Source: an uncultured Gammaproteobacteria bacterium (lineage in GTDB: Bacteria > Pseudomonadota > Gammaproteobacteria > QNFN01). From it: a stretch of 34,819 bases of DNA. A model generated the notes under the pieces. That model searched no databases, was not told where the DNA came from, and was given only the letters and a program-made list of their open reading frames with translations. Both the position numbers and the translations under genes were made by a program. Positions 1,178-34,819 of the stretch are shown in pieces; the stretch's first letter is position 1, and every line of letters starts with the position of its first letter. Location of the stretch: positions 1 to 34,819 of the forward strand of contig CBDTVS010000001.1 in the NCBI GenBank assembly GCA_965364245.1, given 5' to 3'.

Positions 1178-1206
1178 AACGCGCCCTGCAACTGACGTGG
1201 CGCGTT
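1178..1206. promoter_or_regulatory. Perfect 8-bp inverted repeat (AACGCGCC-N13-GGCGCGTT) in the divergent kef-like / yjgR-like intergenic region; possible operator
   Basis: Read directly: aacgcgcc at 1178-1185 and ggcgcgtt at 1199-1206, between two divergently transcribed genes. No cognate regulator identified. Confidence 0.2.
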
Positions 1207-1258
1207 GCAAATCCCCCCATGCTGGCCAACACTTCGCGGACGCAAGAGAGGGTATGAC

Positions 1259-20400: not shown

Positions 20401-23400
20401 GTCGCGCCGGCCTCGTCGTTAGCGAGCACGTTGCCGGTGACGGGACCTGCCTGGTCCTCGGTGGCCGAGGCGCGGTCGTCCACGGCGACCGCCTTGTCAT
20501 CGAGGGCCTGTAGTGCATCCGCCTGGCCGGGCACCTCCACCATCGCCTGGCCGGCGTGGTTGACCGCCACCTTCAGCGTGAGGTCGGCCAGATCACCGAA
20601 TGAGTCCATGTTCATGACGTGGACCGGGAAGCTCTCTTCGGCGGGCGAGCCCGCCGGAATCTGTGCGGCTTTGGATGGGTCGACCACGTAGTTCCAAGTG
20701 CCGGTCAGCTCGTCGACGGTCAGGGTGCCGTACTTACCCTCGACGACCGACTGATCGCTGCCCCGCTCGAGGTCGTTGTAGTCGGCGACGAAGTTGAAGG
20801 TGTCGTGTGCGTTGTCCGGGTCGACTGCCTGCAAGTGACCACCGACCACAGCTGCGGGGCCACGCGTGCTGGTGCCGGCCACATCAACTAGCTGCAGTGG
20901 GTCGTTGTGTCCATGGATGATCACGGTGAGATCACGGTTGGCGCCGTCCTCGGTACGTACCGTGAAACGCTCTTCGTAAGGGCCGCCGGCGAGCTCCTGG
21001 GCCCGGTCGGTGTCGAGGGCGTAGGTCCAGGTGCCCTGCGCGTCGATCTGGAAGTGACCGTAGTGGCCGTCCTGACCTTCAGCGACGAAGGCGGGTGGCG
21101 TGCCCTTGTTGGTGTCGATGTCGAAGTCGCCGGTCAGCGTCGACGTGCTGTCCTCGTCGGTCAGCGCCAGAGGCGATCCTGTGATGACCGTGTAGCTTGC
21201 CCCGCTCGGATCGACGGTCACGGTTGCGGGGGCGCTGGCCGCGCTGTCGCCGGTGACCGGGTCGGTAGCGACGGCGGCGACCTGCAGGTGGAGCACCCCG
21301 GAGTGGAGCACCTGGAGACCCTGTGCCTCAGCCTCGGTCACGGTCCACGAGCCGTCGGCGTTGCGCGTGCCGGACGAGAGCTCAGCCTGTTCCAGCCCGG
21401 TGATGCGCCAGGCGAGCTGCTGATTGGTGTCGGCGCTGTCGCCTACGGCGGCGGAGAGGGTGAGCGGCGTCTCGAAGCGCAGCAGCTCGGCCTCGACGCG
21501 CTCCACACCGACGTTGGTCGAGAACTGCGTCGTGCCGCCGGAACGCGTGGCTTCCGGGGCCGGTGCCTCGGCGTGCAGCGCGACGAAGGCGAATGGGTTC
21601 TGCGTCTCGATCGGTAGCGCCTGGACGGCGGCGCCCTGGCCGGTGGACTCGAGCACGCCGTGGTCGACCGGCGTGCCGTCGGCGGCGTAGGCGGTCCACG
21701 TGAGCTTGTCCCCATGGCCGCTGAGGCCGTTGAGCAGCAGCACGGCGCTCTTCGACACGCCCTGGAGTTCGATGACCAGCGTCTCGCCGGGCTGGTCGCC
21801 CTTGTCCTGGCCCTGGATGATCTGTGAGTCAATGGAGTCCTGCTCGGGTGCGGTCCCCTGGGCAACCGCCGGCCGCGCTGCATCTACGCCGAAGGTGTCA
21901 CCATGGGCGTTGGTGCCGAGACGGGCCGTTTCGAGCGCCGGCAGCTGCAGGTTGCCGTTCGCGTCCTCGAACGCTTCGCCGAAGCCGAGGGCGTGCATGA
22001 CGAAGCCGGTCGATTGCACGCTGCCAACAGTGGCGTGCGCCTCGGCGTGGCCGGCGGCAGCCTGCGTCGCCCCCGTGGAGACAGAGAGCGACGGTGCGTC
22101 CATGCTGCCGTGGATTGTGACCGTCAGGGTGTGCGTGGTGCCGTCGAGGCTGCGCACCTCGGCGGTTTCGACCAGCGTCTGGCCCGGACCGAGAGCCTGG
22201 ATGGCCGGGTTGTTCGCATCGGCCGTGTAGAACCAGTCGCCACCGGCGGTGATGCCGAAGGTGCCCAGGCCGCTGCTGCCGTCGATCTGCAGGTCATCGA
22301 CGAACCGGTCCTCTCCGCTATCGACGTCGCTTATCGCGAGCTTGCCGGCGAGGCTTAGGTGACCCATCCTGGTGTCGTCTTCGTCCACCGAGAGGGTATC
22401 GACACCCGCGATCTGCGCGACGTCGCCGGTGCCGGCAATGTTGATGGTGACCACCTGGGGCGTGCCGTCGACGCTGCCGACGGTGATGCGCTCCACAAGA
22501 TTCTGACCTTCGGCCAGTGACTGCACATCGGGATGGTCGTTGGCGAGCGTGAAGGTCCAGGCACCCTGCGCGTCGAGGGTGAAGTGGCCGTGCGGGGTGT
22601 CACGGTCGATCGGCACGAAGGCCGATTCGCCGACGTTAGGGTCGGACACCGACATTCGGCCAGAGGTGCTGATGTCAGTATCTTCTTTGACCACGCCAAC
22701 CGTGACGCCCCCGAAGATGGCCGGGGTGTTGCCGCCCTTGATCTGCAACACGATGTCGTGGCTGGTGCCGTCTGCGGTTTCCACCCGGAAGCTCTCCGGG
22801 ACCTGTTCGCTGTCGGCGAGCCGGGCAAGGGCCGGCTGGGAGGCGTCTGCCGAGTAGCTCCAATGGCCGTCGGGATCGATGTTCAGGAATCCGTAAGCGC
22901 CCTTGATTACCCCGGCCTGGAAGAATGACTCACCATGGTCCGGATCCATGATCATCAACTGGCCGTCAACATGCACTCTGCCGTCCTTGCTGCCCGCCAC
23001 CGAGCCCATGGCGTGGTCGATCCCGCCGATAAGCGGCACGTCGTTGGTGCCAACGATGGTGATCGTGAGCGACCCCTGAGCGGTGGCACCCTGGCTGTCA
23101 GTGACCATCACCGGCACTGCGAGGCGGGTGGTTTCGCTCTCCTGCAGGCGGGCGTAGGCTGGGTTGGAGGCGTCGAAGGTGTAGCTGCCATCGGCGTGCA
23201 GGGTCAGGCCGGGCACCGTAAAGGGTGTCTCAAAGCGCAACGTGTCGCCGGGGTCAGCGTCGCTCGCGCGCAGGTGACCGGAGACGGTGCTGCCTTCCTC
23301 GACCTGGGCGTAGTTGCCGGGATCTGACACCGGCGGCGGGGCGACGCTACCGGAGCCTGGCAGGGGCGGTGCGGGTGGTACTGCACCCGGGGCGAATACC

Positions 23401-26400
23401 GGTGCGTCGTTTTGTGCGGTGATGTCGAACGTGGCGTGGGCCTCGGTCGACAGGCTGCCATCGCTGACGGTGATACGTACCGGGATCGCGTCACCCGAGA
23501 CGTCCTTCTCGGGAACGAACAGCCAGCGACCGTTGGCCAGCGCGTGGAATTCCCCGTAGGCGCTGTCGATGTCGACGCCGGTGACGAGCAGGTTGTCGCC
23601 CTCCGCATCGGTGGCGCCCACCAGGCGCAGCAAGTCTTCCTGTGTGAAGCTGCGCGCCATGTCCTCGAGTGTGGCGCCGAGGTCGGCCGGGGTACCGGCC
23701 GTGGCCGTGACTACCGGGGCGTCGTTGGTGCCAGTCAGGGTGACCACCGCGACCTGCTCGACCGACTCGGCCGTCCCGGCGACCGTCTCGCCAAGGGAAT
23801 ACTTGATGAACACCTCTGCCTTGTCGCCTGCCGCGAGGTGGTCGAAACCTGCGGCCGAGGGATCGACATGCAGGGTGTGGCCATCGGCGTTCAGCGCGAA
23901 GCCGTCCGGCACCCGAGAAGAGAAGTGGACGCCGTCGGTCGAGTAGAGCAGGGGGCCAACACTCAGGCCATCGACGCCCTCGCGCAGGTCGATCGCGCCC
24001 GCCTGGCCGTCCTCTGTCAGGTCCTGCGTCAACTGACCCTGGTCGATGATCTCGGTGCCGGTGTGCAGCGTGTGGCCGAACTTGTCGGTCGTGGTCACCT
24101 TGACCTGCCAGTCGTGATCGCCGCTGACCCGGTCCATCTGGGTGTGGTCGAGGGTCGCCGTCCAGCCGCCGCCGCTGGCCGTGGTTGCCAGGTCGTAGAC
24201 GATCGACGCGTCGTTGCGATCGACCAGGTGCAGATGCACCTGGGTGCCGTCGGGCACGCCGGTGGCGGTGCCCTGCACCGTGACGTCACCGGAGGTGATT
24301 TCGTAAGCCTCGGCGGCCCATTTGCTGCCACCGCCTCCGGGGTGATTGGCCCCATGCACCGGGTGGCCACCGCGCGTTTCGATTCGCACCTCGAGTGCAT
24401 TGTCGATTCGGTCGATCGACAGCTCGGAATGGGTTTGGGTATCGATGCTGGTCTGTGCCGGGGCGCTGGCCGGCGACGGGTTGCCGGCGGCGTCGGTGGC
24501 GAACGCGCGGAAGGTGTGGTCGCCGTCCGCGAGGTCGGTGGCCGGCGTGAAGGTAAAGGTCCCGGCGGCGGTCGCCGTGGCGGTGCCGAGCACCTGGCCG
24601 TGGTCGGTGATGGTAACGATGGCGCCCGGCTCGGCGACGCCCTGCAGCGTCGGCGTGGCGTCGGGCAGGTTGGCGGCGAGCGTGCTGAGCGTCGGGCGCA
24701 CCGGCGCGACGTCGTCGACCACCTCGAGCTGGAAGTCCTGGTGAACGCTCGCGCCGTCGGTGTCGGTGGCCTCGATGCGCAGGTTGAGCGCGCCGACATT
24801 GGCGTGGCCAGGATCGCCGCTGAAGGTCTGCGTGTCGGGGTCGAAATGGAGCCATGTGGGCAGCGGGCTGCCGTCGGCGAGGGTTGCTGCGTAGGTCAGC
24901 GTGCCGCCCTCGGCGTCGGTGAAGGTGCCGGCCGGGACACGTGCCTGAAGGTGGTCGCCCTCGCCGATGCGGAAGTTGGGGATCGCGGTGGCGACCGGAC
25001 GGTCGTTGGTGCCCTGCACCGTCACGACGACCTCGTGGGTGGTGCCGTCGGTGGTCACCACGGTGATGCGGTCGGTTTCGCTTTCGCCCGTGCCGAGGGA
25101 CTGAACGGCGGGTCGGTCGTTGTCGAGTACGTACACCCAGCTGCCGTTGGCATCGAGGTGCAGGGTGCCGAAGGTTCCGGCGTAGTCGTCGGCGCGGAAG
25201 GCGTCCTCGCCGGTGTCGGCGTCGCTGACGGTCAGCGTGCCGCGCGCGGTCGTGGCGGTGTCCTCGGTGACGGTGGCGCTGTCCGTGCCGCCGATCACTG
25301 CACGGTCGTTCGTGCCGACGATGTCGACAGTGACGGTGTGCTCGGTCCCGTCGAGGCTGGTGACCTTGAACGGGATACTCAGCTGGTCGCCGTCGCCCAG
25401 GGCCTGGATCGCTGGGTCGTCGCCATGAGCCATGAAGGTCCAGCGCCCGCTGGGGGTGAGGACAAGCACGCTTTGGTGAGGGCCGTGGATGTTCTGCGCC
25501 GCGAATCCGGCTTCGTCGGTGTCGATGTCGGACACGCTGAGCTGGCCGTGCGCGACGAGGTCATTTGACAGGGACTGGCTGAAGTCGTCCTCGTCGATGG
25601 CGGCGTGGTCCACGCCAGCGATGTGCGCGGCATCGTTGGTGCCGTGGATGGTCAGCGTGAGTATCTGCTCGGTGCCGTCGACGGTCCGCACCGTGAGCTG
25701 CTCGGTGACGCGGTCGCCCTCGCCCAGCGCCTGGACCGAGGCCAGGCCGTTGTCGAGCGCGTAGTTCCAGTGGCCGGCGGCATCGATGTGGAGCGTGCCG
25801 TAGCTGCCCGCGACGTCGCCGGCTTGGAAGTGCGCCTCGTCGCGGTCGACGTCGGCGACCGTCAGCGTGCCTCGCGCGGTGGTTGCGCTCTCCTCGGTGA
25901 CGTCGCCGCTGCGGGCGCCGCCGATCACGGCCGCGTCGTTGGCGCCCTCGATGGTGACCGTCAGCGTCTGCCGGGTGCCGTCTAGCGTGGTCACAACCAG
26001 CTGGTCGGTCACCCGCTCGCCTGCCGCGAGCTGTTGGATCGCAGGGTTGCTGTTGTCGGCGATGTAGCTCCAGCGGCCGTCGCTGTCGATGGTGAAGTGG
26101 CCGTAGCCGCCGCTGCCCTCGACGTCGGTCTGCACCTGAAAGCTGCTCTCGCCGAAATCAACGTCACTGACATTTAGGCGACCGCTGTAGGCGAGCTGGC
26201 CCGGGTGGGCTTCGCGGTCCTCCCACAGAACTGCGCCGTCATCGCCGGTGACGGTCGGACGGTCGTCGGTCCCGTTGATATGCACGACGATGTCGTGGGC
26301 GGTGCCGTCGGCGGTGCGCACGGTGAGGGTGTCGGTGGTGAAGTCGCCGTCCCCGAGTTCCTGCACTTCGGGGTTGGAGTTGTCGAGGGTGTAGGTCCAG

Positions 26401-29400
26401 GCCCCGTCTGCGTCGATGTGCAGCGTGCCGAAGACCCCGGCGACGTCGCCGGCCTGGAAATGGGCCTCGCCGGTGTCGGCGTCGCTGACGCTCAGCGCAC
26501 CGGTCGCGGTAAGCGCGTTGTCCTCGGTTACGGCACCGCTGCTCGCGCCGCCGATCACCGGGGCGTCGTTGCTGCCGGCGATGATCACGGTGACGATCTG
26601 CGGGGTGCCGTCGGCGCTGCTGACCATCACCCGCTCGGTCAGAGTGGCGCCATTGCCGAGGCCCTGGACGGCGGGGTTGGTGACGTCGAGGGTGTAGGTC
26701 CAGGTACCGTCCTCGGCGAGCGTGAAATGGCCGTGATCGGTGTCGTGGTCGACGGCGTTGAAGTGGGCCTCGGTCGGATTGGGGTCGATGACGTCGAGCT
26801 TGCGGGTGAGGCTGTTGGCCTGGTCCTCGACAACCAGGCCGCGCGACACGCCGCCGATGATCGCGGTCGAGGTGGAACCGTAGATGTTCAGGTCGATGGC
26901 GTGTTCGGTGCCGTCGGCGGTGCGCACGACGAAGTGCTCGGCCGCCGAGGCCCCGGGGCCGAGCGAGGCGAGCGCGGTCTGGGTGGCGTCGGCGCTGTAA
27001 CTCCAGCGGCCGTCCGCGCCGATGCCGAGAGTGCCGTAGCTGCCCTGGAGCAGCATCGACTGGAAATGGGATTCACCGGTGTCGACGTCGAAGATGGTGA
27101 GCTCGCCGCCGAGATGCAGATGGCCGCCGTGGGCGTCGGCGGTCGAGGCGATCGCGGCGTCGACACCACCGATGATGGGCGCGTCGTTGGTGCCGGTGAG
27201 GTGAATCTCCAGATTGCGCTGGTCGCTGGCGCCGAACTGGTCGGTGACGACGATGGGGACGGTGATGTCGCGGGTCTCGCCGGCGGCGAGGCTCTGGTAG
27301 ATCGGGTGGCTGGCGTCGAAGGTGTAGCTGCCGTCGGGGTTGAGCGTCAGGCCGAGCACCGGGGCGCCGACGCGGAAGGTGAGCTGCGCACCGCTGTCGG
27401 GATCGCTGGCGTCGAGGGTGCCGCTGATGCGCGCGCCCTCGTCGACGCTGCGCGCCGTGATCGCCTGCAGCACCGGTGCGTCGTTGGTGCCCACCAGATT
27501 GACCCTGATCGTCGTGCGGTCGCTGGCACCCTGGTCATCGGTAACGCTGACGACAAAGGTCTCGGAAGCGTGCTCGCCGAGCGCGAGGGCGCGGGTCGCG
27601 TCGCGCGACGCATCGATCGTGTAGCTCCATGCGCCGGTCGCGGTATCGAGCACTAGGCTCCCATAGCTGCCGTCGGTGTGGTCGGCGGACCAGGTCAGCG
27701 TGGCCGAGATGTCCGTGTCGGATGCAACCAGCGTGCCCGCGAGCTGGCCGCTACCGCTGCCTATCTGCAGGTTGCCGCCAGCCGTAGTGCCGGCGATTTG
27801 CGGCAGGTCGTTGGTCCCGTTGATACGCACGACGATGTTGTGGGCGGTGCCGTCGGCGGTGCGCACGGTGAGGGTGTCGGTGGTGAAGTCGCCGTCCCCG
27901 AGTTCCTGCACTTCGGGGTTGGAGTTGTCGAGGGTGTAGGTCCAGGCCCCGTCTGCGTCGATGTGCAGCGTGCCGAAGACCCCGGCGACGTCGCCGGCCT
28001 GGAAATGGGCCTCGCCGGTGTCGGCGTCGCTGACGCTCAGCGCACCGGTCGCGGTAAGCGCGTTGTCCTCGGTTACGGCACCGCTGCTCGCGCCGCCGAT
28101 CACCGGGGCGTCGTTGCTGCCGGCGATGATCACGGTGACGATCTGCGGGGTGCCGTCGGCGCTGCTGACCATCACCCGCTCGGTCAGAGTGGCGCCATTG
28201 CCGAGGCCCTGGACGGCGGGGTTGGTGACGTCGAGGGTGTAGGTCCAGGTACCGTCCTCGGCGAGCGTGAAATGGCCGTGATCGGTGTCGTGGTCGACGG
28301 CGTTGAAGTGGGCCTCGGTCGGATTGGGGTCGATGACGTCGAGCTTGCGGGTGAGGCTGTTGGCCTGGTCCTCGACAACCAGGCCGCGCGACACGCCGCC
28401 GATGATCGCGGTCGAGGTGGAACCGTAGATGTTCAGGTCGATGGCGTGTTCGGTGCCGTCGGCGGTGCGCACGACGAAGTGCTCGGCCGCCGAGGCCCCG
28501 GGGCCGAGCGAGGCGAGCGCGGTCTGGGTGGCGTCGGCGCTGTAACTCCAGCGGCCGTCCGCGCCGATGCCGAGAGTGCCGTAGCTGCCCTGGAGCAGCA
28601 TCGACTGGAAATGGGATTCACCGGTGTCGACGTCGAAGATGGTGAGCTCGCCGCCGAGATGCAGATGGCCGCCGTGGGCGTCGGCGGTCGAGGCGATCGC
28701 GGCGTCGACACCACCGATGATGGGCGCGTCGTTGGTGCCGGTGAGGTGAATCTCCAGATTGCGCTGGTCGCTGGCGCCGAACTGGTCGGTGACGACGATG
28801 GGGACGGTGATGTCGCGGGTCTCGCCGGCGGCGAGGCTCTGGTAGATCGGGTGGCTGGCGTCGAAGGTGTAGCTGCCGTCGGGGTTGAGCGTCAGGCCGA
28901 GCACCGGGGCGCCGACGCGGAAGGTGAGCTGCGCACCGCTGTCGGGATCGCTGGCGTCGAGGGTGCCGCTGATGCGCGCGCCCTCGTCGACGCTGCGCGC
29001 CGTGATCGCCTGCAGCACCGGTGCGTCGTTGGTACCAGTGACCGACACGGTCAGGGTGGCGCTGGCGCTGTTCCCGGCAGCATCGATGATGGTGTAGTCG
29101 ACGCGGTCGGGCTGCGTCTCGCCCGCGGCGAGGTGCTGGGCGTTGGTGTTGAGCGTGTAGGTGAACGACCCGTCCGACTCGAGGTGGAAGGTGCCGTATT
29201 GCCCGGCGACCCCGCCGGCGGTGGTGAGCGTGGCGCGGGTGCCGTCGTTGGCGAGTAGGTTCCCGTGGGTCGTGCCCGCCTGGTCCTCGGTGGCGGTGAA
29301 GCTGTCGTCGGTGGCCACGAGCGTGGTGTCGATCGTGACCGCGAGGTCGGGTGAGGAGGTCGGTGGCAGGCCGTTCGGGGCGGTGGCCTGCGCGCTGAGT

Positions 29401-31907
29401 GTGTGGCCGCCCTCGGCGAGGTCCTGCCCCACGGCGAGACTGTAGCGGCCCTGATCGTCGGCGTAGGCCTCACCGATTCGGGTCGCGCCGTCGAAGATCT
29501 CGACCCGTGAGTACGGGATGCCGACAGTGCCCGTCAGGGTCGGCGTGGTGTCATGGGTGATTCCGTCCTGATCGGAGGCGCCAGTGTCGCTGCTGGCGTC
29601 GAGGGCCAGTGTGACCGCATTGGTGGGCTGAGCGCTGGCCGCACCCATGGGTCCACCCACGGCTCCGGCCGGTCCGGCCTGTCCCGCGGGACCTGCAGAG
29701 GGTGGCGTGGTGCCCTGCACCGGTGGCGCATCGACTCGCACGGTGACCTGTGGCGGCAAGCCGGGTCCGGCCGGCGCGGTGACGCTCCCGGTGGGGCTGA
29801 AGGTCAGGAATTTCGAGGTGACGCCGCCGTGCCCATCGTCGACCTGCACCTCGAAGGTGTCCTGGCCGCGGTAGGTGCCACTGGCCGGGTCGAGGGTCAT
29901 GCCCTGGACCGAATCGCTCGGCATGTAGACGTAGGCGCCGGTCTGCGGGTCGACACTGAGACTGCCGAACTGGCCGCTGCCGCTGCCGGTGACGCCGAAG
30001 GTGGGCGTGTCGCCGGTGTCCACGTCGGTCTGCTCAAGCAGCCCGTGGATCGCGTCGGTGGGGGTTACGCGCAGATCCGGTGCGTCGTTGGTGCCGAGGA
30101 TGTCGACAGTGATGACGTGTTCGGTGCCGTCGAGGCTGGTGACGCGGAAGGTTTCGGTCAGTTTCTCGCCGTCGCCGAGGGCCTGCACCGCAGGCAGGCT
30201 GTTGTCGAGGGTGTAGCTCCAGTCGCCACCGGGTTGCAGCACCAGGGTGCCGCCCAGCGACCCGTGCTGGGCCTGGTTCGCGAAGCCAGCCTCGCCGGAG
30301 TCGGCATCGTAGACGTCGAGGTGCCCAGCAGCACGCAGCTCGGCCCCTTGGAGCTGATCTTCGCGCACCGTGCCATGACCGACACCGCTGATCTGCGCGG
30401 CGTCGTTGGTGCCGGTGATCTGTAGAGTGATCTGCACCACGCTGCCGTCAGCGGAACGGACGGGAATCGTTTCCTGCAGCGGTACCCCGGCAGCGAGTGC
30501 CTGAACGTCCGGGTTGGCGTTGTCGAGGTCGTAGGTCCAGGTTCCCGACGAGTCGAGGTTCAGGGTGCCGTAATGGCCGGCGATCTGACCCGCTTGGAAC
30601 TGCGCTTCACCGGCATCGGCATCCTGGATTGAAAGGGCGCCGGAGGCGCGCGCCAGTGTGTCCTCGGTAACGGCGCCGGATGCGATCCCGCCGATCACCG
30701 GCGCGTCGCCGCTTCCGGTTACGGTGACCGCGACACGCACCGGCGTGCCGACGCCGTGCTCGTCGGTCACGGTCGCGGTGAAGATCTCCTGAACCTGCTG
30801 GCCGTCACGCAGCCCCTGCGTCGCGGGGCGTGTGTTGTCGAGGGTGTAGCTCCAGCGACCGCTGATGTCATCGAACACGAGGGTGCCGTAGGCGCCATCG
30901 AGGTGGTCCACGTTCCAGTGCAGCTGGGCTCCGGTATCGGGATCGGTGACCGCGATGCGCCCCTCCACGTGACTCGTCGAGGCGTCTTCGGTGACGAGGC
31001 CGGTGGTGACCGAGCCAGAGACCAGGCGTGGGGCGTCGTTGGTGCCCTCGAGCATGATCTTGATCGGAGTCGTGACGACGGTACCCGCCGTGTCAGTAGC
31101 GATGACCGTGAATGTCTCACTGACACGCTCACCTTCGGCAAGTGCCTGGACCCCAGGACTGTTGCCGTCGAGCACGAAACGCCAGGAGCCGTCGGTGCCA
31201 ACGGTGAAGTGACCGTAGGCGCCCTGACCCTGGTCGACCTGCCAATGAACGCCTCCGGCACCGCCGCTGGCGGCGAGGTGCCCCTGCGTGGCGCTTACGT
31301 CGTCCTCGCGGACCTTGCCGCCGTACTCGCCGGTGACGATCAGCGGATTGGTGGTCGGTTGGGAGCTGGCGCTGCCACCGGCAGCCGTGCCTCCCGTGGA
31401 GCCCGCGCTGGCGTGGCCATGTGTAGTGCCTGCAGCAGTGCCGCTAGCGCTGGCAGCCGCGTCCAGCGGGGCTTCCGATCCGCGTCGTTCGGCGGCAGCG
31501 CTAGCGGTCGGAATGATGGGGCCGGAGGCGTCGCCGCTCGGGGTGATCTCGAGTCCCGTGCCGAAGTCTGCGCCAGAGGCGGTATGGCCACCTCGGCCGC
31601 GGGTCGCGGTGGCGGACGCTGATACGGACGGACTACCGGCCTGGGCGCCGGCTGCGAGGTCGGAGTCACTCGCATTGGCGGCCGCGACGGACGTGTCCTT
31701 GAGCGCCCCTCTGGCAGTGCCAGGAGCCGCGCTGGTGGGTGCAAACGTCTCGCCGTTGGGTTGCGGCTCGGCGCCCGGTTCCGACGCCAGGTCCTCGTCC
31801 CAACCGATCTCGTTCCCTGCGGCGATTTCGCTACGCGACTTTTCCTCAGGCCGTTGGTCGGGCCGGTCCTTGGCTGACTCGGGTTTCTTGCGGCGTTCGT
31901 CACTCAT
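17442..31907 (-). CDS. Giant (4,821 aa) repeat-rich surface/secreted adhesin-like protein, presumed substrate of the adjacent type I secretion system
   Basis: A single uninterrupted 14,466-nt ORF. About two dozen ~100-aa VCBS-type modules each end in G(T/S)NDAP (for example GxYGTLxxxxDGxWxYxLDNxxPxVQAL...TGTNDAP). Interspersed are Ig-like modules (TPTLTGT...), a dystroglycan/cadherin-like module (LPTWLHFDPDTQTFSG) and cadherin-like DADGDAL modules. The N-terminal ~190 aa are low-complexity Ala/Ser/Gly/Thr. It lies directly downstream of the ABC and HlyD genes on the same strand. Confidence 0.95.
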   Translation of the reverse strand: MSDERRKKPESAKDRPDQRPEEKSRSEIAAGNEIGWDEDLASEPGAEPQPNGETFAPTSAAPGTARGALKDTSVAAANASDSDLAAGAQAGSPSVSASATATRGRGGHTASGADFGTGLEITPSGDASGPIIPTASAAAERRGSEAPLDAAASASGTAAGTTHGHASAGSTGGTAAGGSASSQPTTNPLIVTGEYGGKVREDDVSATQGHLAASGGAGGVHWQVDQGQGAYGHFTVGTDGSWRFVLDGNSPGVQALAEGERVSETFTVIATDTAGTVVTTPIKIMLEGTNDAPRLVSGSVTTGLVTEDASTSHVEGRIAVTDPDTGAQLHWNVDHLDGAYGTLVFDDISGRWSYTLDNTRPATQGLRDGQQVQEIFTATVTDEHGVGTPVRVAVTVTGSGDAPVIGGIASGAVTEDTLARASGALSIQDADAGEAQFQAGQIAGHYGTLNLDSSGTWTYDLDNANPDVQALAAGVPLQETIPVRSADGSVVQITLQITGTNDAAQISGVGHGTVREDQLQGAELRAAGHLDVYDADSGEAGFANQAQHGSLGGTLVLQPGGDWSYTLDNSLPAVQALGDGEKLTETFRVTSLDGTEHVITVDILGTNDAPDLRVTPTDAIHGLLEQTDVDTGDTPTFGVTGSGSGQFGSLSVDPQTGAYVYMPSDSVQGMTLDPASGTYRGQDTFEVQVDDGHGGVTSKFLTFSPTGSVTAPAGPGLPPQVTVRVDAPPVQGTTPPSAGPAGQAGPAGAVGGPMGAASAQPTNAVTLALDASSDTGASDQDGITHDTTPTLTGTVGIPYSRVEIFDGATRIGEAYADDQGRYSLAVGQDLAEGGHTLSAQATAPNGLPPTSSPDLAVTIDTTLVATDDSFTATEDQAGTTHGNLLANDGTRATLTTAGGVAGQYGTFHLESDGSFTYTLNTNAQHLAAGETQPDRVDYTIIDAAGNSASATLTVSVTGTNDAPVLQAITARSVDEGARISGTLDASDPDSGAQLTFRVGAPVLGLTLNPDGSYTFDASHPIYQSLAAGETRDITVPIVVTDQFGASDQRNLEIHLTGTNDAPIIGGVDAAIASTADAHGGHLHLGGELTIFDVDTGESHFQSMLLQGSYGTLGIGADGRWSYSADATQTALASLGPGASAAEHFVVRTADGTEHAIDLNIYGSTSTAIIGGVSRGLVVEDQANSLTRKLDVIDPNPTEAHFNAVDHDTDHGHFTLAEDGTWTYTLDVTNPAVQGLGNGATLTERVMVSSADGTPQIVTVIIAGSNDAPVIGGASSGAVTEDNALTATGALSVSDADTGEAHFQAGDVAGVFGTLHIDADGAWTYTLDNSNPEVQELGDGDFTTDTLTVRTADGTAHNIVVRINGTNDLPQIAGTTAGGNLQIGSGSGQLAGTLVASDTDISATLTWSADHTDGSYGSLVLDTATGAWSYTIDASRDATRALALGEHASETFVVSVTDDQGASDRTTIRVNLVGTNDAPVLQAITARSVDEGARISGTLDASDPDSGAQLTFRVGAPVLGLTLNPDGSYTFDASHPIYQSLAAGETRDITVPIVVTDQFGASDQRNLEIHLTGTNDAPIIGGVDAAIASTADAHGGHLHLGGELTIFDVDTGESHFQSMLLQGSYGTLGIGADGRWSYSADATQTALASLGPGASAAEHFVVRTADGTEHAIDLNIYGSTSTAIIGGVSRGLVVEDQANSLTRKLDVIDPNPTEAHFNAVDHDTDHGHFTLAEDGTWTYTLDVTNPAVQGLGNGATLTERVMVSSADGTPQIVTVIIAGSNDAPVIGGASSGAVTEDNALTATGALSVSDADTGEAHFQAGDVAGVFGTLHIDADGAWTYTLDNSNPEVQELGDGDFTTDTLTVRTADGTAHDIVVHINGTDDRPTVTGDDGAVLWEDREAHPGQLAYSGRLNVSDVDFGESSFQVQTDVEGSGGYGHFTIDSDGRWSYIADNSNPAIQQLAAGERVTDQLVVTTLDGTRQTLTVTIEGANDAAVIGGARSGDVTEESATTARGTLTVADVDRDEAHFQAGDVAGSYGTLHIDAAGHWNYALDNGLASVQALGEGDRVTEQLTVRTVDGTEQILTLTIHGTNDAAHIAGVDHAAIDEDDFSQSLSNDLVAHGQLSVSDIDTDEAGFAAQNIHGPHQSVLVLTPSGRWTFMAHGDDPAIQALGDGDQLSIPFKVTSLDGTEHTVTVDIVGTNDRAVIGGTDSATVTEDTATTARGTLTVSDADTGEDAFRADDYAGTFGTLHLDANGSWVYVLDNDRPAVQSLGTGESETDRITVVTTDGTTHEVVVTVQGTNDRPVATAIPNFRIGEGDHLQARVPAGTFTDAEGGTLTYAATLADGSPLPTWLHFDPDTQTFSGDPGHANVGALNLRIEATDTDGASVHQDFQLEVVDDVAPVRPTLSTLAANLPDATPTLQGVAEPGAIVTITDHGQVLGTATATAAGTFTFTPATDLADGDHTFRAFATDAAGNPSPASAPAQTSIDTQTHSELSIDRIDNALEVRIETRGGHPVHGANHPGGGGSKWAAEAYEITSGDVTVQGTATGVPDGTQVHLHLVDRNDASIVYDLATTASGGGWTATLDHTQMDRVSGDHDWQVKVTTTDKFGHTLHTGTEIIDQGQLTQDLTEDGQAGAIDLREGVDGLSVGPLLYSTDGVHFSSRVPDGFALNADGHTLHVDPSAAGFDHLAAGDKAEVFIKYSLGETVAGTAESVEQVAVVTLTGTNDAPVVTATAGTPADLGATLEDMARSFTQEDLLRLVGATDAEGDNLLVTGVDIDSAYGEFHALANGRWLFVPEKDVSGDAIPVRITVSDGSLSTEAHATFDITAQNDAPVFAPGAVPPAPPLPGSGSVAPPPVSDPGNYAQVEEGSTVSGHLRASDADPGDTLRFETPFTVPGLTLHADGSYTFDASNPAYARLQESETTRLAVPVMVTDSQGATAQGSLTITIVGTNDVPLIGGIDHAMGSVAGSKDGRVHVDGQLMIMDPDHGESFFQAGVIKGAYGFLNIDPDGHWSYSADASQPALARLADSEQVPESFRVETADGTSHDIVLQIKGGNTPAIFGGVTVGVVKEDTDISTSGRMSVSDPNVGESAFVPIDRDTPHGHFTLDAQGAWTFTLANDHPDVQSLAEGQNLVERITVGSVDGTPQVVTINIAGTGDVAQIAGVDTLSVDEDDTRMGHLSLAGKLAISDVDSGEDRFVDDLQIDGSSGLGTFGITAGGDWFYTADANNPAIQALGPGQTLVETAEVRSLDGTTHTLTVTIHGSMDAPSLSVSTGATQAAAGHAEAHATVGSVQSTGFVMHALGFGEAFEDANGNLQLPALETARLGTNAHGDTFGVDAARPAVAQGTAPEQDSIDSQIIQGQDKGDQPGETLVIELQGVSKSAVLLLNGLSGHGDKLTWTAYAADGTPVDHGVLESTGQGAAVQALPIETQNPFAFVALHAEAPAPEATRSGGTTQFSTNVGVERVEAELLRFETPLTLSAAVGDSADTNQQLAWRITGLEQAELSSGTRNADGSWTVTEAEAQGLQVLHSGVLHLQVAAVATDPVTGDSAASAPATVTVDPSGASYTVITGSPLALTDEDSTSTLTGDFDIDTNKGTPPAFVAEGQDGHYGHFQIDAQGTWTYALDTDRAQELAGGPYEERFTVRTEDGANRDLTVIIHGHNDPLQLVDVAGTSTRGPAAVVGGHLQAVDPDNAHDTFNFVADYNDLERGSDQSVVEGKYGTLTVDELTGTWNYVVDPSKAAQIPAGSPAEESFPVHVMNMDSFGDLADLTLKVAVNHAGQAMVEVPGQADALQALDDKAVAVDDRASATEDQAGPVTGNVLANDEAGATVTSTADQQGAYGTLALQADGGYTYTLDARAQVLAAGESHQERFTYEITDAAGNTATAHLVVTVTGTNDAPVVSAPVTLTDADAAMPLHISEAQLLAHASDPDGDALSVENLASVSTGPSTQVARALLSMGHSAQNLEVSHGTVTADPAGGYLYTPEAGYEGPVRLTYDVVDPQGARVATHADFDTVAVSHAAVITDTSHETVTEDVSGLATGRLGISDLDGSNEELFTPLFNAQSDQGYGHFSISVGGTWVYRLDDSHQAVDALAAGETLTDTITVNSADGTAHQLHVTIAGTDDAPNVQAGDLGTVEQGLTRTFTSAELLQTVHATDVDTAADQLAISSVWVDPQYGVITHTGDSWALTPVSGVTHDDIPVKVTVTDGTTSVTADATLDITPPARMAIEGVSYYYADDTAHTHPIADLGDLDAARLGHGLVAVGQVTGPELSQLQLTSAVMVSEGSGMAGGGQVQMEANGHFEVTFDENDLLNLQGKELYIVFNVGGQMRGQTTGAHLTSPSFVVDTVPIAASDTDLGEVEAGAPLPLDINTLLAGATDADGDALTLVPGSLSSPHGTITGDAQSGFVFHPEPGFSGDDVHIAYQLTDGRHTVDTFATVDVLHPDHAPVASSLVNLGVAVEETGTKLSMDKLLSGASDADGDALSVVAGSFSSRYGQVTDDGHGGFVFTPAHGVQGVRAISYQLTDGKGHVVDATAIIEVAPGVRITGITPDTGTQADFTTSDPTILISGSSAPGATVKVQTMDSSHLELGTTTADADGHWTLDATGHALPDGATPLVAIASLPSGYFALAQQEVTIAPDGRSASVGELLPIDDGSVVGVEHPDMMFTAYTGEPAPDDQAGAVGDLSPPTDDTSQEVHDTSYDDTMVATGSGTDSDHAVDDYMQFADTTQQGDSPAAADGAVPSPLADYLVAAGVEPTDLQQVESVTSPDPTLVDVPDTQPAPTSPEDMIDEGLDTGGDVADPSLLDDPQHHGV
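17445..17843 (-). other. C-terminal 133-aa acidic Pro/Asp/Thr-rich tail module of the giant adhesin (candidate secretion signal), paralogous to 12078..12476
   Basis: Homology with the orphan copy begins at AVGDL and runs to the stop. GC is about 55-62% in hand-counted samples, against 68-75% just upstream in the same gene. Confidence 0.7.
26295..27488. repeat. Copy A of a perfect 1,194-bp direct repeat inside the giant adhesin gene (codons 1474-1871)
   Basis: Offset is exactly 1,545 bp to copy B. Flanking mismatches lie at 26294/27839 and 27489/29034. ORF-track peptides in several frames are letter-identical between the copies (26416..26697 = 27961..28242; 26639..26833 = 28184..28378; 26888..27169 = 28433..28714). 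Confidence 0.95.
27840..29033. repeat. Copy B of the perfect 1,194-bp direct repeat (codons 959-1356)
   Basis: As for copy A. The repeat is in frame (398 codons, four ~100-aa modules). The copies are separated by a unique 351-bp (117-codon) module at 27489-27839. Confidence 0.95.
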
Positions 31908-31983: not shown

Positions 31984-33324
31984 TCACCGTTCATGGAAGG
32001 CGGTGTCGGCGGTGATGAACACCGGTTTGAGGATGAACTGCAGCACCGACTTGCGACCAGTCGCGATGTCCACCTCGCCGGTCATGCCCGGGATCAGGCG
32101 GCGCTCTTGGCTGCCGACGTAGGACGTGGCCAGGCTGACACGGACCTTGTAGTAGGGGGCGCCGGTCTCTGGCATCTTGTAGGTGGTCGGGGAAACCTGG
32201 GTCACGATGCCCTCGACGGCACCGAAGCGGCTGTAGTCGAAGGCGTCGAATTTGACGAGGGCCTGTTGCCCCGGGCGCACGAATCCGATGTCGCGCGGCG
32301 CGACCTGGGCCTCCATCAGGATTTCGCCGTCGACTGGGACGATCTGCGCGATCGTCCCGCCGGGCGGGACCACTGCGCCCTCGCGTGTTTCGGGCAGGCT
32401 GATCACCACGCCGTCGATCGGCGCGACCAGCAGTCTACGACCCTCGCGGGCGTTGAGCGCAGTCAGGTCCGCCTCCAGCTCGCGCATCTGTTCGACGATC
32501 TGACTGCGTTCGGTGCTTGCGTCCTTGGTGAATTCGGCGCGGATGCGCTCGAGGTCGGACTCGATGGACTCGATGGCGTTGCGTAGCGATTCGGCGCGTG
32601 AGCGGGCATCGGAACGGCGCAGTTCGAGCTCGGAGACCTGTTGACGCTCCTCGCTGAGCTGCAGGCGGCTGATCAGGCCCTTGCTGACACCCTCCTCGAC
32701 GCGCTTGAGCTTCGCTCGCGCCTCGGCCAGTTCGCGGTCCAGCAGGCGCAATTCACCCTCGACACCTTTCAGCGTTGCCTGTTGCTGCTCGACCTCGTTG
32801 CGCTTTGCCGCCAGCGCCGCATCGCGAGCGGAGACCTGCGCACGATAGGTTGCGCGCGCCTCGGCCACCATGCGCGGTCGCTCGGAGAAGGGGATGAAGT
32901 CGGGTTCGCGCTCCTCCACGAACGCACCTAGCCGTTCCAGCTCAATAGCGAAGCTGGCCATACGTGTCTGCGCCTGGGCAAGATCGCGCTCGAGGTCCGA
33001 GACGACGAAGTCGGCGATGTTCTGACCGCGGGTGACGAATTCGCCATCCTCGACGTAGAGCACGCCGACGGTGCCGCCCTCTTCGGTCTGCAGGCTCTGC
33101 ACGTTGCCCGCCGGCTCGATCTCACCGCGCGCGCGTGCAAGTTCGTCGACCTGTGCCAACGCGGCCCAGACCAGGAACGTGACGACCAGCACGACGATGC
33201 CGAGTAGGGCACGGCGCAGGGCGCGGGTCTGCCCCGATTCGTCGAGCTGCGCCTCGATGCGTTCGAGTTGCCGGTCGTCTCCGGCCGTTGCGGTCACGAT
33301 GTCGGGTGCTGAGGCTTCGTTCAT
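31984..33324 (-). CDS. HlyD-family type I secretion membrane fusion (periplasmic adaptor) protein
   Basis: ORF 31984..33429 trimmed to the ATG at 33324 (MNEASAPD...). There is one N-terminal TM (LLGIVVLVVTFLVWAALA), a long coiled-coil region, and the C-terminal motif LIPGMTGEVDIATGRKSVLQFILKPV typical of HlyD adaptors. Confidence 0.9.
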   Translation of the reverse strand: MNEASAPDIVTATAGDDRQLERIEAQLDESGQTRALRRALLGIVVLVVTFLVWAALAQVDELARARGEIEPAGNVQSLQTEEGGTVGVLYVEDGEFVTRGQNIADFVVSDLERDLAQAQTRMASFAIELERLGAFVEEREPDFIPFSERPRMVAEARATYRAQVSARDAALAAKRNEVEQQQATLKGVEGELRLLDRELAEARAKLKRVEEGVSKGLISRLQLSEERQQVSELELRRSDARSRAESLRNAIESIESDLERIRAEFTKDASTERSQIVEQMRELEADLTALNAREGRRLLVAPIDGVVISLPETREGAVVPPGGTIAQIVPVDGEILMEAQVAPRDIGFVRPGQQALVKFDAFDYSRFGAVEGIVTQVSPTTYKMPETGAPYYKVRVSLATSYVGSQERRLIPGMTGEVDIATGRKSVLQFILKPVFITADTAFHER

Positions 33325-33340
33325 TGAAGGTACTCGTCTA

Positions 33341-34819
33341 TCAGGCCTGCAGTTGGTTGTCGGGGGGTGCGGCAACCGGTCCGGCATGAACCAGATTGCC
33401 CTCGTTGAGCACCACGACCTGGTCGGCACGCTGGATTAGATCGGTGCGGTGCGTGGCGAGGATCACGGTGCTTTTGCCACGCAACCCGGCGAGGAGTTCG
33501 AGGAACGCTGTCTCGAGCACCGGATCACGATCGGCGAGTGGGTCGTCGAGGAGCAGCAGACCCGGTTCGTCGACCAGCGCCGCCGCCATGTTGACCATGA
33601 AGCGGGCTCGCCGATTAGCCCGGTCGTGGCGCCAGGGTTCGAGCCGCGTGGCCAGTGCCGCCTCGGCGCTGTCGGCGCCGATCAGCTGCCACCAGCCAAA
33701 GCCGCCGACTCGAGCCAATGCGAGCACGATCGCATCGTCGCTGGCGTTCGGGCGGCGCAGGCGGACGAACTCGCAGACAGTCAGCGGCAATCCGTGGTCG
33801 ATCTGTGGCACGTAGCCAAGCCAGGCGCGGTAGTCCGCTGGATCGAACTGGCGGATGTCGCGACCACCGACCAGCACGCGTCCATTCTGGGGCTGGCGCA
33901 CCGAAGCGAGCAGTTCGAGCAGCGTGCTCTTGCCCGCGCCATTGGGCCCGATGACGGCCACGGTCTGACCGCACTCGATCTCAAAGCTGACCCCGTTGAC
34001 CGCCGGCTCACGCTCGGCGCTGTGACGGTAGAACAGGCGGTCAGCGGTCAGCTTGGCCTGCAGAGCTTCGACCGGAGAGGTGGCAAGCGGATTCTGGTGC
34101 TCGCCCTGGGTCGCCATCAATCGCTCGAACTGGCGGCGTGAGGCGACGACCTGACGCGTGCGTGCGTGCGCTGCGAACAGTTGTTGGGCTGGCGTGGTGA
34201 CGCGCCAGATAAGCATCATCGTTGCGATCAGCCCGCCGGTAGTCATGCCACCCTCGAGTACCAATGCGATGCCCACCGCCATGGTGCAGAGCACCGTGAG
34301 CATTGCCAGTGACTGGCCGAGCGTCTGCACGAGGCCATTAGCCAGCGCATGATCCCGGTTGGCCTTGGCTGACTGCACGACAAGGTTGGCGAGGTGCTGG
34401 CGGAGCAGTGCCGAACCGCGCACGCCGCGCAGGCTGCGCAGGCGCAGCGTCAGTGCGGAGGTTGTGTCATTGAGCTCGCGTGAGACCCGTCCTGCCTTGG
34501 CCGAGCGCGTCTCGACGAGCCGTGAGGTCGGCAGCGACACGACGTAGAAGAGCAGCAAAGCGGTCAGTGGCACCACGGCGATCCAACCGCCGAGCAGCGC
34601 GATGACCAGCAGGAAAATCAGCACGAAGGGGTAATCGAGATTGACGATCCCGGCCGACCCACCGAACAGCTGGCGCACACCCTCAGCGCCGCGCAGCCGG
34701 CTGAGATTGGCGTCGACTCCACTGCGCAGGGTGCTCTCAAGCGGCAGCCGAAGTGTCTTGATGATGGCGTTGCGCGTGATGTGTGAGCCGGCCCAAGCTG
34801 ACAGATCGGCCAGCGCGCG
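33341..34819 (-). CDS. Type I secretion ABC transporter permease/ATPase (partial; the N-terminus lies beyond the window) with a non-canonical nucleotide-binding domain
   Basis: The track ORF starts at the GTG at 34678. My translation shows the frame stays open to the window edge (RALADLSAWAGSHITRNAIIKTLRLPLESTLRSGVDANLSRLRGAEGV-RQLFGG...). The TM-domain half is followed by an NBD with Walker A GPNGAGKST, Q-loop GYVPQ, Walker B LLLLDD and H-loop ATHR. No LSGGQ signature is present. Confidence 0.9.
   Translation of the reverse strand, partial: RALADLSAWAGSHITRNAIIKTLRLPLESTLRSGVDANLSRLRGAEGVRQLFGGSAGIVNLDYPFVLIFLLVIALLGGWIAVVPLTALLLFYVVSLPTSRLVETRSAKAGRVSRELNDTTSALTLRLRSLRGVRGSALLRQHLANLVVQSAKANRDHALANGLVQTLGQSLAMLTVLCTMAVGIALVLEGGMTTGGLIATMMLIWRVTTPAQQLFAAHARTRQVVASRRQFERLMATQGEHQNPLATSPVEALQAKLTADRLFYRHSAEREPAVNGVSFEIECGQTVAVIGPNGAGKSTLLELLASVRQPQNGRVLVGGRDIRQFDPADYRAWLGYVPQIDHGLPLTVCEFVRLRRPNASDDAIVLALARVGGFGWWQLIGADSAEAALATRLEPWRHDRANRRARFMVNMAAALVDEPGLLLLDDPLADRDPVLETAFLELLAGLRGKSTVILATHRTDLIQRADQVVVLNEGNLVHAGPVAAPPDNQLQA

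What the first reader, a model, noticed from the sequence alone, without database searches (positions are those of the whole stretch)
33449..33949. T1SS ABC transporter whose ATPase lacks the LSGGQ signature and has Asp in place of the catalytic Glu
Walker A (GPNGAGKST), the Q-loop (GYVPQ) and the H-loop His (ATHR) are present. I anchored an alignment by hand on ...ARALVxxPxILIFDE of HlyB-type NBDs. It places ANRRA where LSGGQ should be (WRHDRANRRARFMVNMAAALVDEPGLLLLDDP, nt 33539-33631). Walker B is followed by Asp (LLLLDD, GAC GAC at 33542-33547) instead of Glu. The D-loop reads ADRD instead of SALD. In a homodimer both composite sites would be non-canonical. Known asymmetric ABC exporters degenerate only one site, and they split the changes between two different subunits. 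This suggests very slow hydrolysis, an unseen partner subunit upstream of the window, or a non-standard energy-coupling mode for exporting a 4,821-aa substrate.
Basis: partly seen in the sequence, partly recalled or inferred. Interest (0 to 1): 0.6.

Follow-up and report, generated by a model that had tools for sequence, protein, structure and literature searches.

The report
Two-subunit secretion pump, one odd ATP site
The odd ATPase is real and conserved: it is one half of a two-protein pump for a giant adhesin that keeps a single ATP pocket, and that pocket lacks the usual ATP-splitting glutamate, so it may show what powers this kind of protein export.

Summary
The minus-strand ABC gene (33341-34819, cut by the contig end) has a Walker A, Q-loop and H-loop His. 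It has ANRRA where LSGGQ belongs and Asp after Walker B.

This is not decay. Of 96 orthologues, 0 have LSGGQ, 86 have Asp-Asp and 1 has Asp-Glu.

Contig C28 overlaps the window end by 55 exact bases. It carries the N-terminus of this protein (a C39-like domain) and, directly upstream, a second ABC half-transporter, ABC1.

ABC1 has the mirror-image pattern across 120 orthologues:
- No A-loop, no Walker A Lys (0/120), no Q-loop Gln and no catalytic Glu.
- A conserved X-loop, an LDEG signature-like motif (Gly 120/120) and an SGLD D-loop.

The order ABC1-ABC2-adaptor-giant non-RTX adhesin was found in all 8 loci inspected, from Alpha-, Beta- and Gammaproteobacteria and Desulfuromonadota.

The pump is therefore most likely an obligate heterodimer. 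One composite ATP site is abolished. The other is complete but non-canonical (Asp for Glu, LDEG for LSGG). I infer slow hydrolysis; nothing was measured.

I found no published description. It is a new variant of type I secretion, closest to the two-ABC MARTX and NHLP exporters.

The parts
33341..34819 (-). ABC2, C-terminal 492 of 731 residues (TM helices 2-6 and the NBD). The first 239 residues (C39-like domain and TM1) lie on contig C28, which overlaps the window end by 55 bases.
   Evidence: 59-61% identical orthologues of 717-731 aa
34022..34036 (-). A-loop region LFYRH (aromatic Tyr kept in ABC2)
33923..33949 (-). Walker A GPNGAGKST (Lys 96/96 in orthologues)
33803..33817 (-). Q-loop GYVPQ (Gln 93/96)
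33605..33619 (-). ANRRA at the position of the LSGGQ signature (signature absent in 96/96; Arg at position 4 in 85/96)
33542..33559 (-). Walker B LLLLD followed by Asp instead of the catalytic Glu (GAC GAC 33542-33547; Asp 86/96, Glu 1/96)
33524..33535 (-). D-loop ADRD (family consensus GDRD; final Asp 88/96; the usual Ser is lost)
33446..33457 (-). H-loop ATHR (His 93/96)
31984..33429 (-). HlyD-family periplasmic adaptor. The ORF starts at GTG 33429; the likelier start is ATG 33324, 16 nt after the ABC2 stop.
   Evidence: TIGR01843 308 bits against a cut-off of 209; Pfam HlyD_3
17442..31907 (-). 4,821-aa adhesin, the presumed cargo. It has no GGxGxD (RTX) repeat. It is the fourth gene of the ABC1-ABC2-adaptor-adhesin set.
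   Evidence: orthologous loci carry Cadherin_4/Big_9 giants in the same position; in L121 the 9,540-aa gene there has no Pfam hit on record

Best explanation
The NBD in the finding belongs to ABC2, a 731-aa subunit (C39-like domain, membrane domain, NBD) of a four-gene type I secretion set: ABC1, ABC2, a HlyD-type adaptor and a giant non-RTX adhesin. A TolC-like channel is encoded elsewhere in the genome.

ABC1 (543 aa; membrane domain plus a pseudo-NBD) and ABC2 most likely form an obligate heterodimer.

ABC2 supplies every 'head' element of one ATP site: A-loop Tyr, Walker A, Q-loop, Walker B and H-loop His. ABC1 supplies every 'tail' element of that same site: X-loop TEVG, the signature-like LDEG[I/V] and the D-loop SGLD.

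The reciprocal site is abolished on both sides. ABC1 has no A-loop, P-loop, Q-loop Gln or catalytic residue, and its H-loop His is variable. ABC2 has no X-loop or signature, and its D-loop Ser is lost. That site probably cannot bind ATP at all.

Shown here: the motif pattern, its conservation, the gene pairing and the domain folds.

Inferred: the physical heterodimer, and that the single site binds ATP and closes the NBD dimer to drive the transport cycle. Because it has Asp for the catalytic Glu and Asp-Glu for the Ser-Gly of the signature, I also infer that it hydrolyses ATP slowly. This rests on analogy with the Asp-bearing degenerate sites of TAP1, TmrB, TM287 and MRP1 NBD1. Conservation of the H-loop His, Q-loop Gln and the Asp in the main clade argues that hydrolysis is still selected for.
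For: **The contigs join**
- There is a 55-base exact overlap.
- ABC2 reads through colinearly with orthologues: residues 4-246 on C28 and 234-714 on C1.
- The ABC1 stop and ABC2 start overlap as ATGA.

**Complementary conservation** (96 ABC2 and 120 ABC1 sequences)
- ABC2: Lys 96/96, Gln 93/96, His 93/96, LSGGQ 0/96.
- ABC1: Lys 0/120, signature Gly 120/120 within L86-D91-E79-G120, D-loop Asp 120/120, Walker B Asp 118/120 followed by His in 83.
- The X-loop T-E-V-G is kept only in ABC1. The A-loop region is deleted in 119/120 ABC1 sequences.

**Pairing**
- 33 ABC2/ABC1 pairs share a contig, and the 32 tabulated all show the pattern.
- All 7 foreign loci inspected have ABC1 directly upstream of ABC2.

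**No decay**
- Mean pairwise identity is 0.53 for the ABC1 NBD against 0.55 for its membrane domain, and 0.58 against 0.58 for ABC2.

**Phylogeny**
- ABC1 and ABC2 are each monophyletic (SH-aLRT 99 and 100) with matching internal groupings, so the pair is co-inherited.

**Other components**
- The adaptor passes TIGR01843.
- The N-terminal domain model (pLDDT 86.5) best matches the C39-like domains 3B79, 3ZUA and HlyB in 7SGR/8DCK.
- TolC-like genes lie on C114 and C172.
Against: - Nothing was measured. There is no co-purification, no ATPase assay and no secretion assay.
- I could not model the heterodimer because only single-chain prediction was available.
- The live site's Asp and its acidic LDEG signature resemble known non-hydrolytic sites, so 'slow but real hydrolysis' may be wrong.
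- In a divergent alphaproteobacterial clade the ABC2 subunit has Gly after Walker B, and some members have no H-loop His. That suggests hydrolysis can be lost altogether.
- The HlyB/HlyD complex holds three ABC dimers, so mixed assemblies of homodimers are not formally excluded.
- The genome is a 75%-complete MAG.
Confidence: 0.75

Rival explanations
1. ATP binding only, with no meaningful hydrolysis. The heterodimer exists, but its single pocket acts as a nucleotide-dependent latch or gate. Export of the roughly 4,800-residue chain is powered elsewhere, by the proton-motive force or by calcium-dependent folding of the cadherin-like and Ig-like domains outside the cell.
For: - The only remaining site has Asp for the catalytic Glu in 86/96 and an acidic LDEG in place of LSGG. 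These are the hallmarks of non-hydrolytic degenerate sites reviewed in PMC7756269.
- A divergent clade has Gly at the catalytic position, and some members also lack the H-loop His.
- Related lineages with a catalytic Glu exist, so this clade looks like the end of a series of progressive loss.
Against: - H-loop His (93/96), Q-loop Gln (93/96) and the Asp (86/96) are conserved in the main clade. Binding alone would not obviously require them.
- There is no direct evidence for any alternative energy source.
Confidence: 0.2
2. ABC2 works as a homodimer, with two signature-less sites. ABC1 is a separate accessory protein or forms its own homodimer within a multi-dimer complex like HlyB/HlyD.
For: - Characterised T1SS ABC proteins (HlyB, PrtD, LapB) are homodimers (general knowledge).
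- The HlyB/D structures 7SGR/8DCK, which appear among my hits, contain several ABC dimers.
Against: - An ABC2 homodimer would have no signature or X-loop in either site. An ABC1 homodimer would have no P-loop in either site.
- Every motif element is kept in exactly the subunit that a single heterodimeric site needs, and lost in the other.
- The genes are translationally coupled and always adjacent.
Confidence: 0.04
3. The motifs reflect a decaying gene or assembly or sequencing errors in a fragmented MAG.
For: The genome is a 396-contig, 75%-complete MAG, and the gene is split across two contigs.
Against: - The frame is open.
- The same substitutions occur in about 100 orthologues from isolates and metagenomes.
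- The NBD is as conserved as the membrane domain.
Confidence: 0.01

Closest known systems
MARTX 'atypical' four-component type I secretion system of Vibrio (RtxB, RtxD, RtxE plus TolC; Boardman & Satchell 2004, as summarised in PMC3034196)
   Same: Two different ABC proteins work with one HlyD-type adaptor and a TolC encoded elsewhere. The cargo is a very large protein, and both ABC genes are needed for export (PMC3034196).
   Different: - Gene order is B-D-E there and ABC1-ABC2-adaptor here.
- The cargo there is an RTX-repeat toxin. Here it is a non-RTX adhesin.
- As far as I recall, both Rtx ATPases keep a Walker A. The primary paper was not available, so this was not checked.
- Here one subunit has no P-loop at all and the other no signature.
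Heterodimeric ABC exporters with one degenerate nucleotide-binding site (TM287/288, TmrAB, BmrCD, TAP1/2; reviewed in PMC7756269)
   Same: Two unlike half-transporters are encoded side by side. The defects of one site are split between the Walker A/B/H-loop of one subunit and the signature of the other.
   Different: - In those transporters the degenerate site still has a P-loop Lys and holds ATP, and the other site is fully canonical (Glu, LSGGQ).
- Here the degenerate site has lost the whole P-loop (Lys 0/120) and the A-loop.
- Here the remaining site carries the Asp and a non-canonical signature.
- Those are drug or peptide exporters, not tripartite protein secretion systems.
HlyB/HlyD/TolC and LapB/LapC/LapE-type T1SS with a C39-like domain; nearest NCBIfam model TIGR03375 (LssB subfamily)
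   Same: The domain order is C39-like domain, six-helix membrane domain, NBD. There is an adjacent HlyD-family adaptor and a giant adhesin cargo as in the Lap system. JGI annotators call these proteins 'LapB'.
   Different: - Those ABC proteins are homodimers with canonical motifs.
- ABC2 scores 326 bits and ABC1 256 bits against a cut-off of 693.
- There are no RTX repeats in the cargo, and no LapG/LapD-type genes were seen in the window ORFs I scanned.
NHLP-type bacteriocin exporters with two ABC subunits (TIGR03796/TIGR03797 plus the adaptor TIGR03794; PMC2887384, PMC6959600)
   Same: Two ABC genes sit at one locus with one HlyD-type adaptor. One ABC gene has an N-terminal C39-type domain and the other does not.
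   Different: - Those export small leader-bearing peptides, using an active peptidase.
- Scores here are far below the cut-offs: 146 of 853, 139 of 709, and 68 of 156 for the adaptor.

Membership tests
Type I secretion ABC transporter with C39-like domain (HlyB/LapB/LssB type) | N-terminal C39-like domain without catalytic Cys | tested here: met
   AlphaFold2 model of residues 1-178 has pLDDT 86.5. Foldseek top hits are 3B79, 3ZUA (HlyB CLD) and HlyB in 7SGR/8DCK, each with probability 0.99-1.00 but weak E-values of 3e-3 to 6e-2. The Cys position of the orthologues (LARC) is Val here. A sequence profile against the PDB found nothing.
Type I secretion ABC transporter with C39-like domain (HlyB/LapB/LssB type) | Adjacent HlyD-family periplasmic adaptor | tested here: met
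   TIGR01843 scores 308 bits against a cut-off of 209. The gene starts 16 nt after the ABC2 stop if ATG 33324 is used.
Type I secretion ABC transporter with C39-like domain (HlyB/LapB/LssB type) | Canonical NBD (LSGGQ, Walker B followed by Glu) working as a homodimer | tested here: not met
   LSGGQ is present in 0/96 and Asp-Glu in 1/96. A second, complementary ABC gene is always present.
Type I secretion ABC transporter with C39-like domain (HlyB/LapB/LssB type) | Passes the curated NCBIfam model (TIGR03375, TIGR01846 or TIGR01842) | tested here: not met
   The best match is TIGR03375: 326 bits (ABC2) and 256 bits (ABC1) against a cut-off of 693.
Type I secretion ABC transporter with C39-like domain (HlyB/LapB/LssB type) | TolC-family outer-membrane partner | tested here: inconclusive
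   Two OEP-family genes lie elsewhere in the genome (C114, C172) and none lies in the locus. Which one serves this system is unknown.
Type I secretion ABC transporter with C39-like domain (HlyB/LapB/LssB type) | Cargo with C-terminal RTX (GGxGxD) repeats | tested here: not met
   There is no GGxGxD in the 4,821-aa adhesin or in the 2,800-aa adhesin of locus L085.
Heterodimeric ABC exporter with one degenerate site (TM287/288, TmrAB type) | Two different half-transporters encoded adjacently, with complementary motif defects | tested here: met
Heterodimeric ABC exporter with one degenerate site (TM287/288, TmrAB type) | One fully canonical (consensus) ATP site | tested here: not met
   The only complete site has Asp for Glu (86/96) and L-D-E-G for L-S-G-G.
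Heterodimeric ABC exporter with one degenerate site (TM287/288, TmrAB type) | The degenerate site still has a P-loop Lys and binds ATP | tested here: not met
   Walker A Lys is present in 0/120 ABC1 sequences and the A-loop is deleted in 119/120. Binding itself is not testable here.
MARTX-type four-component T1SS (RtxB/D/E/TolC) | Two ABC genes plus one adaptor, with TolC elsewhere | tested here: met
MARTX-type four-component T1SS (RtxB/D/E/TolC) | Operon order ABC-adaptor-ABC, divergent from an RTX toxin operon | tested here: not met
   The order here is ABC1-ABC2-adaptor-adhesin on one strand, and the cargo has no RTX repeats.
MARTX-type four-component T1SS (RtxB/D/E/TolC) | Sequence relatedness to RtxB/RtxE | not tested
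   No Rtx transporter sequence was fetched, and the primary paper is not held.
NHLP bacteriocin two-ABC exporter (TIGR03796/03797/03794) | Passes the curated equivalog models | tested here: not met
   Scores are 146 of 853, 139 of 709 and 68 of 156 bits.

The most novel reading that the evidence does not exclude
This clade is a type I secretion engine with no hydrolytically competent ATP site of the textbook kind. Two versions fit the evidence.

(a) The single pocket only binds ATP, as a latch. Export of the giant adhesin is then driven by the proton-motive force or by extracellular calcium-dependent folding.

(b) Catalysis has been rebuilt, with a carboxylate supplied in trans by the partner's conserved L-D-E-G motif working with the Asp-His pair of ABC2.

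In either version the abolished site may be held shut permanently. The contacts would be between the conserved Arg residues at ABC2's former signature (Arg 85/96 and 95/96) and the conserved acidic residues at ABC1's former P-loop (Asp 88/120).
Probability: 0.25. Interest if true: 0.85.

Novelty: new variant of a known kind. Interest (0 to 1): 0.6.

Why it matters
How ATP use is coupled to threading a several-thousand-residue unfolded chain through a type I secretion system is still unsettled. All well-studied systems have two identical, canonical ATP sites, which makes the roles of binding and hydrolysis hard to separate.

This family is a natural, conserved version with exactly one ATP pocket. 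That pocket lacks the catalytic Glu and the canonical signature. Orthologues exist in culturable Pseudomonas, Aeromonas, Marinobacterium, Chitinibacter and Bradyrhizobium strains, so the question becomes directly testable with ordinary genetics and biochemistry.

The result also has a practical use for annotation. These genes are currently labelled 'LapB' or 'bacteriocin exporter', and the Walker A-less partner is labelled only as a 'transmembrane domain-containing protein'.

Tried and rejected
- **Whole-collection scan for related loci.** The tool chose the generic Walker A peptide as its pattern and returned unrelated ABC proteins at 25-35% identity. The single scan of genome contigs was wasted. 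I used exact-protein look-ups instead.
- **Sequence-profile search of the N-terminal domain against the PDB.** It found nothing meaningful. The C39-like assignment rests on the fold comparison only, whose E-values are weak although the top four hits are all C39-like domains.
- **Primary MARTX paper (PMC529086).** It is not held. What I say about Walker A in RtxB/RtxE is from memory.
- **Sequencing error or pseudogene.** Rejected.
- **Another ABC exporter of this genome as the partner.** The exporters on C41 and C297 are only distantly similar to ABC1/ABC2 (23-38% identity over partial matches). The C41 protein has canonical motifs (GASGGGKS, LSGGQ, LLVDE); the C297 protein has a Walker A and Asp-Glu, but the scan found no LSGG motif. 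Nothing links either to the locus.
- **Literature searches.** They found the MARTX and NHLP two-ABC systems but no description of this family. Only open-access papers and preprints were searched, so absence is not proof.
Full report
**What is in the window**

The finding lies in a minus-strand ORF, 33341-34819, that runs off the window's end. Pfam sees an ABC exporter membrane domain and an ABC_tran NBD.

- Walker A GPNGAGKST: 33923-33949
- Q-loop GYVPQ: 33803-33817
- ANRRA: 33605-33619
- LLLLDD: 33542-33559, with GAC GAC at 33542-33547
- ADRD: 33524-33535
- ATHR: 33446-33457

A MAFFT alignment with four canonical NBDs gives the same register. HMMER alignments to ABCB1/ABCB4 find no signature. 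In an AlphaFold2 model (NBD pLDDT about 88-93), the helix that normally begins inside LSGGQ begins at residue 400, just before ANRRA.

**It is conserved, not broken**

A search of the protein collection returned about 100 orthologues at 44-61% identity, 700-756 aa long. They come from Pseudomonas, Aeromonas, Marinobacterium, Roseateles, Chitinibacter, Hyphomonas, Bradyrhizobium, Rhizobium, Trichlorobacter and many metagenomes.

In 96 full-length members:

| Element | Count |
|---|---|
| Walker A Lys | 96/96 |
| Q-loop Gln | 93/96 |
| H-loop His | 93/96 |
| Walker B Asp | 96/96 |
| Residue after Walker B Asp is Asp | 86/96 |
| Residue after Walker B Asp is Glu | 1/96 |
| LSGGQ | 0/96 |

The NBD is as conserved as the membrane domain, with mean pairwise identity 0.58 for both.

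**The missing partner**

The window is a whole contig (C1) of a 396-contig, 75%-complete MAG. Using the neighbours of two orthologues as queries, I found that contig C28 carries the N-terminal 246 residues of this protein and, directly upstream, a second ABC gene.

The 3' end of C28 and the reverse complement of the window's 3' end overlap by 55 exact bases. The joined gene encodes 731 aa, colinear with its orthologues. Its ATG overlaps the stop of the upstream gene as ATGA.

I call the upstream protein ABC1 (543 aa) and the protein of the finding ABC2.

ABC2's first 178 residues fold with pLDDT 86.5. The model is most similar to the C39-like domains 3B79 and 3ZUA and to that domain in the HlyB structures 7SGR and 8DCK. 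The E-values are weak, but the top four hits are all of this kind. The Cys found at the protease position in many orthologues is Val here.

**ABC1 is the mirror image**

Counts are from 120 orthologues.

| Element | State in ABC1 |
|---|---|
| A-loop region | deleted in 119/120 |
| Walker A Lys | 0/120 |
| Q-loop Gln | replaced, mostly by Arg |
| Residue after Walker B Asp | His in 83, Glu in 12 |
| H-loop His | kept in only 15 |
| X-loop T-E-V-G | conserved (108/73/93/118) |
| Signature-like L-D-E-G-[I/V] | conserved (86/91/79/120; Gly invariant) |
| D-loop S-G-[L/I]-D | near-canonical; Asp 120/120 |

ABC2 has none of these 'tail' elements. In an NBD sandwich, each ATP is held by the head elements of one NBD and by the signature, X-loop and D-loop of the other. 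Every element that would serve the site 'ABC2 head plus ABC1 tail' is kept. Every element of the reciprocal site is lost, on both proteins.

ABC1's pseudo-NBD is not drifting. Its mean pairwise identity is 0.53, against 0.55 for its membrane domain.

**The pairing is general**

- Thirty-three ABC2 orthologues share a contig with an ABC1 orthologue, and the 32 tabulated all show the pattern.
- I inspected seven foreign loci: Pseudomonas, Marinobacterium, Bradyrhizobium, Trichlorobacter, Roseateles, Chitinibacter and Aestuariicella.
- All seven have ABC1 (518-545 aa), ABC2 (716-733 aa), a roughly 445-aa adaptor and then a giant gene, usually with overlapping stop and start codons. The giant gene carries Cadherin_4/Big_9 domains in six of them; in the Roseateles locus L121 no Pfam hit is on record for the 9,540-aa gene.
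- In a tree, ABC1 and ABC2 are each monophyletic (SH-aLRT 99 and 100), and their internal groupings match, so the pair is inherited together.
- The two proteins are only 27% identical to each other. They are old paralogues.

**The rest of the machine**

- The adaptor passes the curated HlyD T1SS model: 308 bits against a cut-off of 209.
- TolC-family genes exist only elsewhere in the genome, on C114 and C172.
- The adhesin has no GGxGxD repeat.
- None of 40 relatives carries ABC1, including five genomes of the same genus. Only one true orthologue turned up in 400 genomes sampled across the phylum. The set is therefore a sporadic accessory element.

**How it most likely works**

The motif pattern, its conservation, the gene pairing and the domain folds are shown. 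What follows is inferred.

ABC1 and ABC2 form an obligate heterodimer that has one nucleotide pocket. The other interface has lost its P-loop and A-loop, so it probably binds no nucleotide at all. This goes further than the 'degenerate sites' of TM287/288, TmrAB, TAP or MRP1, which still hold ATP (PMC7756269).

The surviving pocket is itself unusual. It has Asp instead of the catalytic Glu, and Asp-Glu instead of the Ser-Gly that normally touch the gamma-phosphate. In other ABC proteins these changes mark slow or non-hydrolytic sites. I therefore expect slow turnover.

Conservation of the H-loop His, the Q-loop Gln and the Asp in the main clade suggests that hydrolysis is still under selection. 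A divergent alphaproteobacterial clade has Gly at that position and sometimes no His. That keeps the 'binding only' reading alive.

**Comparison with what is known**

- Two-ABC type I systems are in print for MARTX toxins (RtxB/D/E; PMC3034196) and for NHLP-type bacteriocins (PMC2887384; PMC6959600).
- Neither curated NHLP model nor any T1SS ABC model accepts these proteins. The best is TIGR03375, at 326 and 256 bits against a cut-off of 693.
- I found no paper describing a T1SS ABC pair with this motif pattern. Only open-access literature was searched.
- Earlier notes of this scan describe the same kind of two-ABC T1SS in other genomes. I treated them as leads and re-derived everything here.
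- My tree adds that ABC1 is sister to a Walker A-positive, Glu-positive subunit with an I-D-D-G-A signature from another two-ABC family. ABC2 groups with signature-less but Glu-bearing relatives. This clade therefore looks like the most reduced end of a wider heterodimeric T1SS superfamily.

**Verdict**

The finding is a new variant of a known kind and is moderately to highly interesting as a natural experiment on energy coupling in type I secretion.

**Limits**

Noticed in passing
window 17442-17900 and 31600-31907 (adhesin ends); L085 13603-22005: The adhesin and the 2,800-aa adhesin beside the Bradyrhizobium pump both lack RTX repeats. Both have acidic Thr/Pro-rich C-termini with repeated D-x-Y-[L/M]-x-[L/F]-A motifs (here DDYMQFA and ADYLVAA; there DPYLELA, DPYLALA and TDYAQLA). 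Both also have an N-terminal charged stretch followed by I-G-W-D. These could be the secretion signal and a retention or recognition element of this system.
   Followed up: partly
L094-L120 (other genomes of the phylum): A second two-ABC T1SS family is common: most of the 54 of 401 sampled genomes with hits at 30-35% identity. Its ABC1-like subunit keeps Walker A (GDNGSGKT) and Asp-Glu (VLFDE) but has an I-D-D-G-A signature. Frames of about 1,100 aa in L095 and L097 suggest fused two-ABC proteins.
   Followed up: partly
L121 2993-4174; L122 3244-4392; L001 3820-6492; window 14774-17221: Nucleotide second-messenger genes often flank the pump. A response-regulator/HD-GYP-type protein lies directly upstream in Roseateles and Chitinibacter, and GGDEF proteins lie upstream in Pseudomonas. 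In this window a Cache-HAMP-PAS-cyclase lies just beyond the adhesin. This hints at second-messenger control of adhesin export.
   Followed up: no
genome-wide (G001-G040): None of five congeneric genomes, and none of 35 other relatives, has ABC1. In this organism the whole pump-adhesin set is an accessory, probably horizontally acquired block.
   Followed up: partly
window 33324-33429: The adaptor ORF as listed starts at GTG 33429 and would overlap ABC2 by 89 nt. An ATG at 33324 (MNEASAPD...), 16 nt after the ABC2 stop, is the likelier start.
   Followed up: partly
window 1205-2740 and 4165-4956: Unrelated neighbours include a HerA-like helicase (HerA_C, 715 bits) and a YscW/META-domain lipoprotein.
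   Followed up: no
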